Assembly: GCA_964486045.1 (NCBI GenBank) | Contig: CAZALK010000001.1 | Span: 328,242 to 392,241 of the forward strand | DNA: 64,000 nucleotides | From: an uncultured archaeon | Lineage (GTDB): Archaea > Asgardarchaeota > Lokiarchaeia > Sigyniarchaeales > SOKP01 | Direction of reading: 5' to 3' | In this document: in pieces, positions 20,829 through 28,585 of the stretch | Layout of the letters: the number at the start of each line of letters is the position of its first letter | Position numbering within the stretch: position 1 is the first letter of the stretch | The notes under the pieces: model-generated | Seen by the model: the letters and a program-made list of their open reading frames with translations, nothing else | What the model was told of the DNA's origin: nothing | Databases searched by the model: none | Made by a program: the position numbers and the translations under genes

Positions 20829-21434
20829 CTATAGATTCGTATTAAGCTTGATATTTTCTCCGCAGAAATTACAAATTTTCAGTTTTTTGGAAAATAATTC
20901 ACCACATTGAGTACATTCTTGTAGTTCTCGATCAATTATCGCATTAGCTAAGCTTAGAAAGGCTTGATCGACATGTTCTCCAGTTTTAGAAGATGTTCCT
21001 ATAGGTTCCCCATAACAATGAAACTCATCATTAATTTTGATGACCTCAGCTTTAGATATCTCCCGATTCTCTTTTAAGTCAATTTTTGTACCGATAATTA
21101 TCTTAATTACATCATCGGAATTTCTATTTATGATTTTAACCCAGTTTTTAATATCCTCTAAAGATGATTTGTCAGTGGTATCAAATAGCAATAATGCGGC
21201 TGTAGCGCCATTCACATAAGCCGGAAAAAGAATACGATATTTTTCTTCACCACCAAAATCCCAAATGTTTAATTCAATATGTAATTTTTCGCTAAGCTTA
21301 ATTTTTTTCCTTTTAAAGGCAACTCCGATGGTTTTCATTGTGCTCTCATTGAAAACATTATCACAATAACGAGTAATAAGAGAGCTTTTTCCAACATCTT
21401 TGGCACCAGCAACAACAATCTTATATTTTAGCAT
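20829..21434 (-). CDS. Rab-like small GTPase with C-terminal zinc ribbon
   Basis: GAKDVGKS (G1), TIG (G2), WDFGGE (G3), TKID (G4), TSSK (G5), CTQC...CNFC. Confidence 0.92.
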   Translation of the reverse strand: MLKYKIVVAGAKDVGKSSLITRYCDNVFNESTMKTIGVAFKRKKIKLSEKLHIELNIWDFGGEEKYRILFPAYVNGATAALLLFDTTDKSSLEDIKNWVKIINRNSDDVIKIIIGTKIDLKENREISKAEVIKINDEFHCYGEPIGTSSKTGEHVDQAFLSLANAIIDRELQECTQCGELFSKKLKICNFCGENIKLNTNL

Positions 21435-25912: not shown

Positions 25913-26527
25913 ATGATAAAATTCAAGGTTGTAGTTGCCGGCGCTAAGAACGTGGGGAAAACCTCTCTAATAAGACGTTATGCAACAGGAAAGTTCGAGA
26001 TCTCTACATTATCGACTATCGGGGTTGATTTTGAGACAAAGAAGGTAATTGTGGATGATAACGAAATCCTACTTAATATTTGGGATTTCGCAGGAGAATT
26101 CTGACTGCTCTTCGCAGTGGAACTCTAAAAAAAATTCAGATTGTTATTCCCTTCTTATATTTCCGGAGCGTCTGGAGCTTTAATGTTGTATGATGTCACT
26201 AATAGAGACTCTGTAAATGATCTTTATGACTGGATAAATGTCATTTCTTCCGTACCAAATTCACCAAAAACGAAAATTTTAATTGAAGCAAAAACAGATT
26301 TGAAACGGAATGTGAAAAAGGAAGAAGCGCAACAAATATTTGATAAGTTTGATTTTCAAGGAGAAATAATTGAAACTTCAGCAAAAACAGGTAAAAATGT
26401 AGAAAAAACATTTGAAATGTTAGGTCGTGAGATTCTTAAAAAATCTCTACAGAGATGCTCCAATTGCGGAAAAATGTACCCCTTAGAGTTAAAATTTTGT
26501 CAATATTGTGGGTCAAAAACGATTTAA
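25913..26527 (+). CDS. Rab-like small GTPase with C-terminal zinc ribbon, interrupted by a 30-nt insert; join(25913..26098,26129..26527) = 194 aa
   Basis: The two ORF-track pieces are in the same frame. GAKNVGKT, TIGVDF, WDFAGE | KKFRLLFPSYISGA, AKTD, ETSAK, CSNC...CQYC. Colinear with the 20829-21434 paralog once the insert is removed. Confidence 0.9.
26099..26128 (+). other. Candidate bulge-helix-bulge/loop (BHB/BHL) intron in a protein-coding gene
   Basis: TTCTGACTGCTCTTCGCAGTGGAACTCTAA: 10 codons including in-frame TGA and TAA. Exon GGAG (26093-96) pairs with CTCT (26123-26), both junctions fall 2 nt 3' of that 4-bp helix, and there is an internal ACTGC/GCAGT hairpin. Confidence 0.75.
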
Positions 26528-26538
26528 ATTTATAAATT
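26498..26538 (+). repeat. Direct repeat copy 1 (att-like), covering the last 10 codons (including the stop) of the GTPase gene
   Basis: TGTCAATATTGTGGGTCAAAAACGATTTAAATTTATAAATT; 38/41 identical to 28545-28585. Confidence 0.9.
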
Positions 26539-26611
26539 ATAATAGAGAAGGTAAAAATAGAGGAATCAGAAGAGTTTATGTAAAAGCCAAGAAAATTGGC
26601 AATTCTTTTCT

Positions 26612-26897
26612 GTCCTATCGTACGATTCTTCTGGGATATTTCAGAAAAATATCACCTGGGGCGGTGATGCGTGGGATGTAGGTGTTATTATATGGAAAAT
26701 ATTCACTTAAAATAATCAGAATAACAAACTAGAAATAATCAAGATAAGTTTAACCATAATCCTTATTTAATTCTATTTTTACTAATAAAAACTACTAATA
26801 CGAAAATTTCGTTAAAAGAATTGACTATTACCGATCTACCTTCATCAGAACCTAAGCCCCCCCATGTAGTATTCCAAATTTGACTCCCATTGCTATC
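26612..26897. pseudogene. Beta-propeller (SBBP-like) repeat fragments, one on each strand
   Basis: Plus 26612-26683 reads VLSYDSSGIFQKNITWGGDAWDVG; minus 26897-26799 reads DSNGSQIWNTTWGGLGSDEGRSVIVNSFNEIFV. Both carry the same DSxG...NxTWGG...D.G repeat. Confidence 0.65.
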
Positions 26898-27630
26898 CAA
26901 TTCTATTGGAACAGTTGAGTATCCATTCTTAATTATGGATGATATATTTGAGTCGACAAACGCTACGTATGGTATATATATCGAAAACACAAATAAATAC
27001 CTATTACTAAAAAATTGTTCGATATCAGCCGTGGATTACGGGATAGTACTAAAAAATGTATCTTACATTTCAATTAAAAAGGATAAAGTATTTGATCACA
27101 AAGAATATGGCGTTGTTATCTTAAATTCACAAAATGTTTCGGTTACTGATAGTGACATCCATAATAATGATAACGGAATTAAAATTCAAGAATCCGTTGA
27201 TATAGTATTAGAAAAAAACTTCATTTCGATGAATTACCTGCTTGGGATTTTTCTAATCAATTCTTCTTCCTGTAATGTTATATATAATTATCTATTTTCT
27301 AATCAATATGGGATAAAAACAGAGAATTCGAATTATAATAAGATTGTTGGTAATAATTTAGAATATCATGAAAATGCGATACATTTATCTCATTCAAATT
27401 TTAATATTATAATGAACAACAACGGAGTAGACAATATAAACGAAATCATGGAAAATAGTTGCCAAAACAATCTATTTGAAAGTAATTTTTCCCAGCAAGA
27501 AAGTGATATCATTATACCTAAACTAGACGTTACTATAATAATTGTATTTTCTGTTTCTTTTTTTTCTCTAGTTTATATTGTAATGAATGTATATCGTTAT
27601 AGGAAATTGTCAAAGTCTTCATCTTTATAA
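26890..27630 (+). pseudogene. NosD/CASH right-handed beta-helix domain with C-terminal TM anchor, 5'-truncated
   Basis: GTVEYPFLI, repeated GIxLxNSxNxxIxxN units, hydrophobic C-terminal helix with basic tail. No signal peptide; the 5' end abuts the inverted propeller fragment. Confidence 0.7.
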
Positions 27631-27694
27631 TCCTTGCATAAAAATAGTGTTATATACATAACATTAATAATTAGAATCGAAAGAAGAGAGTAAA

Positions 27695-28501
27695 ATGAAA
27701 GAACTAGAAAATTGTGGTATTGGAAGTCGAACTATAGACAAATTGAATAACTTAGGTGTTACAACAGTAAAAGAACTTGCACTTACACATTCCTATAAGT
27801 TGGTAGATGCGGGCATCGGCAACACAACTGTTACTAAAATATTGAAAAGTGCCAGAAAAACTTATATGGATATACATGGGTTCGATAATCATGATGCTGA
27901 ACGATTTGTCCTGAAAGGCGTTACTTTACAAGATGCAACAATTTTAGCCAAGATCCAAAAACAATTATCTTGCTTGTATGGTAGTTATTATTCTGTGAGG
28001 GCTTTTCGTAGTTTTGATACTCATCTTGATTATTATATAGATGAAAATACAGATAAAGAAGACTTCGGTATAGGTGAGTATACAGATAAAGAAGACAAAA
28101 TATATAAGAACAGAGTGGATTTTTGGTATTCCTTCGGCTGCATGTTTTATAAACTAGAGAAAGGTAGAGTCATTTTACTTTGGTATCATCCGTATTATAT
28201 AAACGCAGGGCCTTTTCCCATACTAAAGAAAATCCCCAAAGATTTATTGGAATTATCACATCTAAAATATAGCTGCATACTATGTACCAACAGAGCAATT
28301 GAACGCATGCCTGAAACCATCAGGAGTAATGATATTTTTGAGGTAAGAATAGAACCGTCCGAAACAAGTGCTTCCTATCTTGTTCAAGAGATTAAGGAGG
28401 TAGGGTCTGAGCTTAAAATAATTAGGAGAGGGGCACTTGATGGATATGATAACGAATTGGAATTTTTGCTTGACGAAGCTTTTATAAGAAGAGATTTATA
28501 A
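27695..28501 (+). CDS. Protein with RadA-N-like helix-hairpin-helix domain fused to an unknown domain
   Basis: GIGSRTIDKLNNLGVTTVKELA...AGIGNTTVTKILKSAR; no Walker A motif downstream. Confidence 0.75.
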   Translation: MKELENCGIGSRTIDKLNNLGVTTVKELALTHSYKLVDAGIGNTTVTKILKSARKTYMDIHGFDNHDAERFVLKGVTLQDATILAKIQKQLSCLYGSYYSVRAFRSFDTHLDYYIDENTDKEDFGIGEYTDKEDKIYKNRVDFWYSFGCMFYKLEKGRVILLWYHPYYINAGPFPILKKIPKDLLELSHLKYSCILCTNRAIERMPETIRSNDIFEVRIEPSETSASYLVQEIKEVGSELKIIRRGALDGYDNELEFLLDEAFIRRDL

Positions 28502-28544
28502 TTATTATTAGATTAGATAATCTAAAGGTTATTGATGAGTGGAA

Positions 28545-28585
28545 TGTCAATACTGCGGGTCAAAAACGATTTAAATTTCTAAATT
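28545..28585 (+). repeat. Direct repeat copy 2 (att-like; displaced GTPase 3' end)
   Basis: TGTCAATACTGCGGGTCAAAAACGATTTAAATTTCTAAATT still reads CQYCGSKTI*. Confidence 0.9.

What the first reader, a model, noticed from the sequence alone, without database searches (positions are those of the whole stretch)
25913..26527. Candidate tRNA-type (BHB/BHL) intron in the mRNA of an Asgard Rab-like GTPase
Seen in sequence: (1) the gene is split by exactly 30 extra nt (26099-26128) containing in-frame TGA and TAA; (2) removing them gives WDFAGE-KK-FRLLFPSY, matching the intact paralog WDFGGE-EK-YRILFPAY (20829-21434) without a gap, and the rest of the gene shows no decay; (3) exon GGAG (26093-96) pairs with insert CUCU (26123-26) as a 4-bp central helix, and each junction falls after AA, 2 nt 3' of that helix on each strand; (4) the insert has an ACUGC/GCAGU hairpin, and the exons can pair (GGAUUU 26083-88 with AAAUUC 26132-37) beyond an internal loop, giving a relaxed BHL form. 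Established: archaeal EndA cuts after the second nucleotide of each bulge flanking a 4-bp helix and RtcB ligates; the classic mRNA case is cbf5 in some crenarchaeotes. Inference: this is an endonuclease-spliced mRNA intron in a eukaryotic-signature gene. Unspliced mRNA would give a 63-aa stub cut at switch II, so splicing could act as an on/off control, conceptually like non-spliceosomal HAC1/XBP1 splicing. Caveats: the pairing next to the 5' bulge is imperfect (the best local fold gives a 2-nt bulge), and flanking A's make the junction ambiguous by 2 nt.
Basis: partly seen in the sequence, partly recalled or inferred. Interest (0 to 1): 0.95.

Follow-up and report, generated by a model that had tools for sequence, protein, structure and literature searches.

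The report
tRNA-type mini-intron in Asgard Rab gene
A Rab-like GTPase gene of a Lokiarchaeon (Asgard archaea) is interrupted by a 30-base hairpin carrying stop codons. Diverged relatives keep this hairpin while both gene halves stay under strong selection, so it is very probably cut out of the mRNA by the tRNA-splicing enzyme, which the papers I could search report for only one archaeal gene (cbf5).

Summary
The Ras/Rab-like GTPase gene (25913-26527, +) carries 30 extra nt (26099-26128) with in-frame TGA and TAA. The insert sits exactly where 24 same-genus orthologs are contiguous.

It is not decay and not an assembly error:
- Homologous inserts at the same site occur in six further lineages from independent metagenomes. 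All have intact exons.
- dN/dS among insert-bearers is 0.02-0.065, with synonymous sites near saturation. The insert itself differs at only 2-7 of 30 positions.
- One allele has a completely different inner hairpin with the same ends. That gives five compensatory pairs.
- A second insert site lies 18 nt upstream and is empty in this window. It carries 29-30-nt inserts with the same geometry in four other lineages, two of them frame-breaking.

In all 11 alleles a 4-bp central helix lies exactly 2 nt upstream of both junctions. Shifted registers do this about 2% of the time. The motif is relaxed: a 2-3-nt 5' bulge, and a 3' site in an internal loop.

The genome encodes two EndA paralogs and RtcB. 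Its only uS10 gene needs the same kind of removal.

Splicing was not shown, because no RNA data were available.

This scan's earlier notes flag similar mini-introns in other genes of this genome and in other Asgard genomes.

The parts
25913..26098 (+). Exon 1 of the Ras/Rab-like GTPase (62 codons: P-loop, switch I, up to WDFAGE)
   Evidence: Pfam Ras 9e-37. 90-97% identical to the same-genus orthologs.
26099..26128 (+). 30-nt insert (ins1), the candidate BHB-type mRNA intron. In-frame TGA at 26102-04 and TAA at 26126-28.
   Evidence: Absent from 24 same-genus orthologs at exactly this point. Homologous inserts in six further lineages.
26129..26527 (+). Exon 2 (switch II KKFRLLFPSY to the C-terminal zinc ribbon, stop TAA 26525-27)
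   Evidence: dN 0.03-0.12 against saturated dS downstream of the insert.
26093..26096 (+). Central helix, 5' strand (GGAG, in exon 1). Pairs with 26123-26126.
   Evidence: 100% of cells paired in 7 alleles; G-C to G-U and A-U to G-U changes.
26123..26126 (+). Central helix, 3' strand (CUCU, in the insert)
26097..26098 (+). 5' bulge (AA). The predicted 5' cut is after 26098. The bulge is 2 nt here because U26099 pairs with A26122; it is 3 nt in alleles that start with C.
26099..26122 (+). Inner hairpin h': UUCU/GGAA (26099-102 with 26119-22), bulged G26103, ACUGC/GCAGU (26104-08 with 26114-18), loop UCUUC (26109-13)
   Evidence: Five pairs changed on both sides in allele L046.
26127..26131 (+). 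A-rich 3' side of the internal loop. The predicted 3' cut is after 26128. The opposite side of the loop is CGCA 26089-26092.
26083..26088 (+). Exon-exon outer helix, 5' strand (GGAUUU). Pairs with 26132-26137 (AAAUUC).
   Evidence: 100% paired; U-A changes to C-G in two alleles.
26132..26137 (+). Exon-exon outer helix, 3' strand
26079..26080 (+). Second intron site (ins2), empty in this window, between AAT AT and T TGG. It holds 29-30-nt inserts in L038, L048-51, L052 and G134.
20829..21434 (-).

Best explanation
The 30 nt at 26099-26128 are a bulge-helix-bulge-type (relaxed, 'BHL') intron in the pre-mRNA of a Rab-like GTPase.

Proposed mechanism:
1. The transcript folds locally. Exon GGAG pairs with intron CUCU to form the 4-bp central helix.
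2. On the 5' strand, a 2-3-nt bulge (AA, or AA plus a third base) separates this helix from the intron hairpin.
3. On the 3' strand, the cut site lies in an A-rich internal loop. That loop is closed by an exon-exon helix (GGAUUU/AAAUUC).
4. The heteromeric splicing endonuclease EndA (two paralogs in this genome) cuts 2 nt 3' of the central helix on each strand, after 26098 and after 26128.
5. RtcB joins the exons, giving GAA|AAA.
6. The spliced mRNA encodes the 194-aa GTPase that all intron-less orthologs encode.

What is shown: the insert, its conservation and covariation, selection on both exons, the geometry, and the presence of the enzymes.

What is inferred: the cleavage and ligation themselves.

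The intron is one of two intron positions in this gene. Both are gained and lost between closely related lineages. The intron therefore looks like a tolerated or mobile element rather than a gene-specific switch.
For: Junction and copy number
- The exact junction is defined by 24 same-genus orthologs without the insert.
- Among 135 species genomes of the family, the insert is found only in this one.
- Homologous 30-nt inserts at the same site occur in six further lineages from independent metagenomes and assemblies: L033/L039, L035, L036/L040, L038, L048-51 and L046/47.

Gene integrity and selection
- Every in-silico spliced coding sequence is full length: 585 nt like the orthologs, 594 nt in the more distant L046.
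- dN/dS among insert-bearers is 0.02-0.065, both upstream and downstream of the stops. Synonymous differences are 0.25-0.78 per site, while the insert differs at only 2-7 of 30 positions.

Structure
- The unconstrained minimum-free-energy fold equals the BHB-like fold in 5 of 7 alleles.
- The central helix is 4/4 in the predicted register in 11 of 11 alleles, against about 1.8% of shifted registers.
- 97.6% of cells are paired, against 32-57% with slid partners. Six pairs change on both sides. No shuffle out of 500 reaches the observed covariation.

Second site
- ins2, 18 nt upstream, has the same geometry (central helix UAAU with GUUG or GUUA, 3-nt 5' bulge).
- It is 29 nt, hence frame-breaking, in L038 and L048, yet the downstream exons are intact.

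Enzymes and precedent in the same genome
- Two EndA paralogs. One is closest to the catalytic subunit of the Aeropyrum heterotetramer, 3p1z_B (chain identity from memory). One RtcB.
- Asgard EndA is reported as (alpha-beta)2 type with the L1 loop that goes with broad specificity (PMC5829648).
- The cbf5 mRNA introns also often have relaxed motifs (PMC2738675).
- The genome's only uS10 match is split by a frame-breaking 31-nt insert whose fold is near-canonical BHB.
Against: - There is no RNA evidence. No RNA run holding this DNA was listed.
- The motif is not canonical. In this allele the 5' bulge is 2 nt. The 3' cut site lies in a 4 x 5 internal loop rather than a 3-nt bulge next to a helix.
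- The single-sequence fold is not better than shuffles (z = -1.5).
- Five of the six double compensatory changes come from one sequence (L046).
- The structure tested was derived from these same sequences.
- The substrate range of this organism's EndA has not been measured. I did not check the L1 loop in its sequence.
Confidence: 0.85

Rival explanations
1. The insert is removed from the RNA, or skipped, by machinery other than EndA/RtcB. Candidates are another structure-specific nuclease plus a ligase, or an unknown system that recognises the conserved NNUUC hairpin loop and the CUCUAR end.
For: - The 3' site is not a canonical bulge.
- All alleles of both inserts share a 5-nt loop ending in UUC, and ins1 alleles share the end ACUCUA(A/G). 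This is more sequence conservation than BHB recognition needs.
Against: - No such system is known in archaea.
- The cut geometry relative to a 4-bp helix is exactly that of EndA in 11 of 11 alleles.
- EndA and RtcB are present.
- Relaxed motifs are known substrates of heteromeric EndA.
Confidence: 0.06
2. Translational bypassing. The ribosome hops over the insert, as in phage T4 gene 60 or the 'byp' elements of yeast mitochondria. Here it would take off at TTC 26099-101, just before TGA and a hairpin, and land on TTC 26135-37.
For: In this allele a TTC codon is followed at once by TGA and a hairpin, and a second TTC lies 36 nt downstream.
Against: - That hop would give a switch II two residues shorter than in all orthologs.
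- Alleles starting with CTC (L036, L038, L046) have no matching landing codon.
- A hop that restores the ortholog junction would need GAA to land on TAA.
- ins2 alleles (AUA before the insert, AAA before UGG) also lack matched codons.
- The conserved features are helices placed symmetrically around both junctions, which bypassing does not require.
Confidence: 0.04
3. The gene is dead or dying: a pseudogene inactivated by a small insertion, or two separately translated fragments.
For: - Read literally, the gene gives a 63-aa stub.
- Most orthologs lack the insert.
- One distant ortholog (L053) has a plain in-frame stop at the same codon.
Against: - dN/dS is 0.02-0.065 among insert-bearing lineages whose synonymous sites are near saturation, including the part downstream of the stops.
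- No frame damage is seen in any of 7 + 4 alleles.
- The insert itself is conserved.
- No start codon follows the insert.
- In L038 and L048 an 18-nt piece (WDFAGE) lies between two inserts and is conserved, so it cannot be a separate product.
Confidence: 0.03
4. Assembly or sequencing artefact.
For: None found.
Against: - Logan contigs of two samples at 80x and 284x hold it without a difference.
- A contig of another study runs into it.
- Variant copies occur in JGI, ENA, NCBI and Logan assemblies.
Confidence: 0.01

Closest known systems
BHB intron of the cbf5 pre-mRNA in Crenarchaeota (Desulfurococcales, Sulfolobales; Watanabe 2002; Yoshinari 2006; Yokobori 2009, PMC2738675)
   Same: - A short intron inside a protein-coding gene.
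- A bulge-helix-bulge-type motif that is often relaxed.
- A host with a heteromeric splicing endonuclease.
- Lineage-specific presence and loss among orthologs.
   Different: - A different gene (Rab-like GTPase, a eukaryotic-signature family) and a different phylum (Asgard, Lokiarchaeia).
- Two intron positions 18 nt apart, leaving an 18-nt micro-exon when both are filled.
- Several alleles with unrelated hairpins at the same site.
- All four presence/absence states occur within one shallow clade.
- cbf5 splicing was shown experimentally. This one has not been.
Non-canonical archaeal tRNA introns with relaxed BHB motifs (hBH, HBh', BHL), cut by (alpha-beta)2 or epsilon2 EndA (PMC5829648; Marck and Grosjean 2003, as cited in that paper's reference list)
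   Same: - Size (about 30 nt).
- A 4-bp central helix with cuts 2 nt 3' of it on both strands.
- One well-formed bulge next to the intron hairpin and one loop-like site.
- The enzyme type is present in the genome.
   Different: The substrate is an mRNA coding region. There is no tRNA body to help recognition, and the exon half of the motif is constrained by codons.
Heavily interrupted tRNA genes of Asgard archaea (bioRxiv 10.64898/2026.10.13.758758)
   Same: - The same clade.
- Many short intervening sequences.
- Repeated gains.
- EndA present and mostly two-subunit.
   Different: That work concerns tRNA genes only. It has no occurrence of 'mRNA', and mentions protein-coding genes only as neighbours used for locus matching.
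Unconventional HAC1/XBP1 mRNA splicing by Ire1 and a tRNA ligase (recalled from memory)
   Same: Protein-only, non-spliceosomal removal of a short intron from an mRNA. Stem-loop cut sites. Ligation by a tRNA ligase (RtcB in animals).
   Different: The nuclease is different (Ire1, not EndA). That system is regulated by stress, and no sign of regulation is seen here. This is an analogy only.
Translational bypass elements (T4 gene 60; mitochondrial 'byps' of Magnusiomyces; recalled from memory)
   Same: A short non-coding gap inside an open frame, with a stop and a hairpin at its start.
   Different: Matched take-off and landing codons are not conserved here. The conserved features are symmetric helices around both junctions.

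Membership tests
Archaeal BHB (endonuclease-spliced) intron | 4-bp central helix between the two cut sites | tested here: met
   GGAG/CUCU here. 4/4 pairs in 11 of 11 alleles of both inserts, against about 1.8% of shifted registers. 100% of cells paired, with G-U substitutions.
Archaeal BHB (endonuclease-spliced) intron | Cuts 2 nt 3' of the central helix on each strand (after the second bulge nucleotide), related by two-fold symmetry | tested here: met
   The junctions defined independently by 24 intron-less orthologs fall exactly there for ins1, and likewise for ins2. This is geometry only. No cleavage data.
Archaeal BHB (endonuclease-spliced) intron | Two 3-nt bulges on opposite strands, each flanked by helices (canonical hBHBh') | tested here: not met
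   - 5' site: a 2-nt bulge in this allele, 3 x 1 in the C-start alleles L036 and L038, a clean 3-nt bulge in L046 and in the register-constrained folds of the ins2 alleles.
- 3' site: in a 3-4 x 4-5 internal loop for ins1, and 3 nt opposite 2 nt for ins2.
This is therefore a relaxed (HBh'/BHL-like) motif, not the canonical one.
Archaeal BHB (endonuclease-spliced) intron | Flanking helices: intron hairpin (h') and exon-exon helix (h) | tested here: met
   h' lies next to the 5' bulge and has compensatory changes. h (GGAUUU/AAAUUC) is present in all alleles but set back by the internal loop.
Archaeal BHB (endonuclease-spliced) intron | Host encodes a splicing endonuclease able to cut relaxed motifs, plus an RtcB ligase | tested here: met
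   Two PF01974 paralogs, one closest to the catalytic subunit of the Aeropyrum heterotetramer (chain identity from memory), and one RtcB. The L1 loop was not examined. Broad specificity is taken from PMC5829648.
Archaeal BHB (endonuclease-spliced) intron | Spliced RNA (exon-exon junction, released or circular intron) observed | not testable with these tools
   No RNA run holding this DNA was listed.
cbf5 pre-mRNA intron family | Located in the cbf5 (pseudouridine synthase) gene of Crenarchaeota | tested here: not met
   The host gene is a Ras/Rab-like GTPase (Pfam Ras 9e-37) in a Lokiarchaeial genome. It works the same way but is not a member.
Programmed translational bypass element | Matched take-off and landing codons that give the functional protein | tested here: not met
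   TTC...TTC occurs only in alleles that start with T, and it would delete two conserved residues. There is no match in the C-start alleles or in ins2.

The most novel reading that the evidence does not exclude
Lokiarchaeial (Asgard) genomes carry a dynamic population of about 30-nt endonuclease-spliced mini-introns inside protein-coding genes. These include essential genes such as uS10. They are gained, replaced and precisely lost at recurrent 'proto-splice' sites between closely related lineages, and can leave micro-exons as short as 18 nt. That would be a working mRNA intron-exon system, built on the tRNA-splicing machinery, in the closest prokaryotic relatives of eukaryotes.
Probability: 0.6. 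Interest if true: 0.92.

Novelty: new member of a known kind. Interest (0 to 1): 0.82.

Why it matters
In the papers I could search, endonuclease-type introns in archaeal protein-coding genes are documented only for cbf5 of Crenarchaeota.

Here the same kind of intron sits in a eukaryotic-signature gene of an Asgard archaeon. Comparative evidence shows it is kept and removed:
- strong selection on both exons;
- structural covariation;
- a frame-breaking sister intron.

Consequences if it holds:
1. Gene callers systematically split or truncate such genes in Asgard genomes. The databases hold 56-66-aa stubs and about 128-aa tails of this very gene, which distorts gene inventories.
2. Asgard cells must splice some mRNAs before translation, even for an essential ribosomal protein. 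This bears on how transcription and translation are coordinated in the lineage that gave rise to eukaryotes.
3. The rapid gain, loss and allele turnover at fixed sites gives a tractable system for asking how protein-spliced introns spread.

Tried and rejected
- RNA evidence. The look-up of sequencing runs listed no RNA holder for this DNA, so expression and splicing could not be examined.
- Genome-wide scan. My own scan for BHB-like geometry plus ORF-merging gave 8,515 hits against 10,387 with a decoy pairing rule. The filter is far too weak, so the scan says nothing about how many such introns the genome has. It did recover this locus and uS10.
- Paralog search. A tblastn screen of about 71 small-GTPase loci of the genome found an internal insert only in this gene.
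- Repeat or mobile-element origin. blastn-short found no second copy of the insert in the genome.
- ins2 pattern search across the family. The pattern was too loose, and most hits were ordinary paralogs. One true hit (G134) was kept.
- Read-through with recoded stops. Rejected because alleles use TGA, TAG or TAA at the same place, and two ins2 alleles are 29 nt.
- Single-sequence fold statistics. z = -1.2 to -1.5, not significant.
- L053. It looked like an insert-bearing stub but is a plain in-frame TAA in a 520-nt contig.
- ARAGORN. It finds only 31 tRNAs, 20 of them with 'introns', and several with odd anticodons. This hints at heavily interrupted tRNA genes but is not a reliable census.

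Full report
**1. The observation**

The plus strand at 25913-26527 encodes a Ras/Rab-like GTPase with a C-terminal zinc ribbon (Pfam Ras, E = 9e-37). The frame is open for 62 codons up to WDFAGE. It then reads TTC TGA, and a second in-frame stop (TAA) ends a 30-nt segment at 26099-26128. After that the same frame continues with KKFRLLFPSY to the natural stop.

It lies on the minus strand at 20829-21434.

- GGAG 26093-96 with CUCU 26123-26;
- a 2-nt AA bulge;
- UUCU/GGAA;
- the ACUGC/GCAGU hairpin;
- GGAUUU 26083-88 with AAAUUC 26132-37, beyond a 4 x 5 internal loop.

On a single sequence this fold is not better than shuffles (z about -1.5).

**2. Is the DNA real?**

- Independent Logan contigs of two samples of the probable source study cover the whole stretch at word depths of 80 and 284, without a single difference.
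- A 201-nt contig from a different study (2 differences) runs 23 nt into the insert.
- The insert has no second copy in the 5.18-Mb genome.

**3. Orthologs define the junction**

A six-frame search of 40 related genomes found one ortholog in each of the 24 same-genus genomes, at 80-94% identity. All were without internal stops and 30 nt shorter. In every one, the N-terminal match ends and the C-terminal match begins at adjacent bases, GAR|AARAARTTY. Deleting exactly 26099-26128 therefore restores the ortholog structure. The register can slip by up to 2 nt because of the flanking A's.

A pattern search over 135 species genomes of the family found the insert only in this genome.

**4. The insert is nevertheless old and conserved**

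I ran a degenerate pattern (exon end, a gap of 18-48 nt, exon start) over the metagenome contigs. I also searched the protein database for N-terminal stubs. Together these recovered homologous 30-nt inserts at the same site in six further distinct lineages, drawn from JGI, ENA, NCBI and Logan assemblies:
- L033 = L039;
- L035;
- L036 = L040;
- L038;
- L048-L051 (four samples);
- L046/L047.

In every case both exons are open, and in-silico splicing gives a full-length product (585 nt as in the orthologs; 594 nt in the more distant L046).

Pairwise dN/dS among insert-bearing genes is 0.02-0.065. That is the same as among intron-less orthologs (0.03-0.07). It holds separately for the part upstream and the part downstream of the stop codons. 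Synonymous differences are 0.25-0.78 per site, which is often saturated. Over the same comparisons the insert differs at only 2-7 of 30 positions.

The genes are functional, and the insert is itself under constraint.

**5. Structure evidence**

The variation is of the kind a conserved RNA structure predicts:
- Loop positions vary freely.
- Stem changes are compatible with pairing: A-U to G-U, G-C to G-U, U-A to U-G.
- In the exon-exon helix, the synonymous third positions of an Asp and a Lys codon change together (U-A to C-G) in two alleles.
- Allele L046 keeps the ends (CUCU...ACUCUAG) but has an entirely different inner hairpin. In the same alignment columns this gives five pairs changed on both sides.

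Over seven alleles, 97.6% of cells form standard pairs, against 32-57% when the 3' partners are slid by 1-3 columns. Six pairs have changes on both sides. None of 500 shuffles reaches the observed covariation.

Two caveats apply. The structure was derived from these sequences, and five of the six double changes come from one sequence.

The unconstrained fold of a 74-nt segment equals the BHB-like fold in 5 of 7 alleles.

**6. A second intron site**

Contig L038 carries a further insert 18 nt upstream, between AAT AT and A TGG. The same site is filled in three other lineages:
- L048-51, a related sequence;
- L052, a different hairpin, with ins1 absent;
- G134, a species of another genus of the family, with yet another perfect hairpin and ins1 absent.

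Two of these inserts are 29 nt long, so they break the frame. The downstream exons are still intact and conserved.

Where both sites are filled, the exon between them is only 18 nt (WDFAGE).

ins2 has the same geometry as ins1:
- a central helix UAAU with GUUG or GUUA;
- the 5' cut 2 nt after it, in a clean 3-nt bulge;
- the 3' cut 2 nt after the other strand;
- an exon-exon helix of 10-11 bp.

Across all 11 alleles of both sites, the 4-bp helix is complete in exactly the register that reproduces the ortholog junction. Shifted registers achieve this in about 1.8% of cases.

**7. Distribution**

On the gene tree, ins1 needs at least 4-5 changes and ins2 at least 3-4.

The small, well-supported clade that holds the window contains all four states:
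- no insert (L003);
- ins1 only (the window and L039);
- ins2 only (L052);
- both (L048).

Two explanations fit: repeated precise loss of old introns, or repeated site-specific gain or transfer. The data do not decide between them. The unrelated hairpins at one site argue for some reinsertion or replacement.

All alleles share a 5-nt loop ending in UUC. The commoner ins1 and ins2 alleles share GC-NN-UUC-GC at the same offset, which may mean common descent.

**8. The machinery, and a precedent in the same genome**

The genome has two PF01974 paralogs of about 200 aa:
- One is closest to the catalytic subunit of the crenarchaeal heterotetramer (3p1z_B, 3ajv_B).
- The other is most similar to the M. 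jannaschii enzyme.

It also has a single RtcB.

Published work assigns Asgard archaea the (alpha-beta)2 type with the L1 loop that goes with broad substrate range (PMC5829648). It also notes that the cbf5 mRNA introns frequently have relaxed motifs (PMC2738675).

Following a lead from this scan's notes, I checked the only uS10 match in the genome. The profile matches only positions 22-98 in one frame. The N-terminus lies in another frame. The 31 nt between them (C9:148818-148848) fold, unconstrained, into a near-canonical motif:
- a 6-bp exon helix stacked on a 4-bp central helix;
- AAA and ACU bulges;
- an intron hairpin.

Removing them gives a full 104-aa uS10. An essential single-copy gene thus needs the same operation.

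**9. Rivals**

- *Translational bypassing.* It fits this allele superficially (TTC, TGA, a hairpin, a second TTC). But it would shorten switch II by two conserved residues. It also has no matched codons in the C-start alleles or in ins2.
- *Pseudogene, or two separate products.* Excluded by the selection data, by the absence of start codons after the insert, and by the 18-nt exon.
- *Recoded stops.* Excluded by TGA, TAG and TAA at one position and by the 29-nt alleles.
- *An unknown, non-EndA removal system.* It cannot be excluded, but nothing calls for it.

**10. Membership and novelty**

The element works like an archaeal BHB intron and meets most defining features: the central helix, the cut geometry, the flanking helices and the enzymes. 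It does not meet the canonical two-3-nt-bulge form. It is a relaxed motif, as many cbf5 and non-canonical tRNA introns are.

It is not a member of the cbf5 intron family. The gene and the phylum are both different.

I found no paper reporting such introns in Asgard protein-coding genes. A 2026 preprint treats Asgard tRNA introns only.

Earlier notes of this scan flag similar 29-32-nt inserts in other genes of this genome and in other Asgard genomes. I verified only the uS10 case.

The proposed regulatory role (an on/off switch) has no support. The patchy, fast-changing distribution and the presence of a similar insert in a housekeeping gene fit tolerated or mobile elements.

**11. Verdict**

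The intron reading is strongly supported by comparative evidence, with a confidence of about 0.85. Splicing itself remains to be shown.

Noticed in passing
window 26498-26538 and 28545-28585 (the block between them is 26539-28544): A 41-nt direct repeat (93% identical) duplicates the last codons, the stop and 14 nt downstream of the GTPase gene. It brackets about 2 kb holding two ORFs (26890-27630, 27695-28501). A contig from another study (X3) continues from 26538 straight into the sequence that follows the second copy here. The block therefore looks like an insertion with a duplicated target in this lineage.
   Followed up: partly
G000 C9:148818-148848 (L057:1479-1509): The genome's only uS10 (rpsJ) match is split by a frame-breaking 31-nt insert. 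Its unconstrained fold is a near-canonical BHB (6-bp exon helix, 4-bp central helix UGCA/UGCG, bulges AAA and ACU). Removing it gives a full 104-aa uS10.
   Followed up: yes
L038 (Ga0209977_10096327), L048-L051, L052 (JAZHCH011273426.1), L068 (G134:C72): A second intron site 18 nt upstream of ins1 holds 29-30-nt inserts with at least three unrelated hairpins. When both sites are filled, the middle exon is only 18 nt.
   Followed up: yes
all ins1 and ins2 alleles: The hairpin loops are 5 nt and end in UUC: UCUUC, CUUUC, CCUUC, UUUUC, GAUUC, AAUUC, AGUUC, UAUUC. The commoner ins1 and ins2 alleles share GC-NN-UUC-GC at the same offset. This could be common descent or a recognition feature; it is unexplained.
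   Followed up: no
L053 (ENA k127_1172765, 520 nt): A more distant ortholog has a plain in-frame TAA, with no insert, at the codon just after WDFAGE. This is the same place where ins1 sits in other lineages. It is a single short contig, so it could be an error or a pseudogene.
   Followed up: no
whole genome G000: ARAGORN finds only 31 tRNA genes in a 99%-complete genome. Twenty have predicted introns, and several have implausible anticodons (Pyl, Stop). This suggests many tRNA genes are interrupted in ways the program cannot model.
   Followed up: partly
protein database entries P0005-P0008 and the roughly 128-aa products in L048-L051: Public gene calls for this gene are 56-66-aa stubs plus separate C-terminal pieces, some of them named Rab-11A or 'partial'. 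Current annotation splits the gene wherever an insert is present.
   Followed up: partly
P0013 (ENA, 104 aa, 511-nt contig): The first 41 residues of this GTPase are joined to an unrelated PF01937-type sequence. This is probably a chimeric or rearranged short contig.
   Followed up: no
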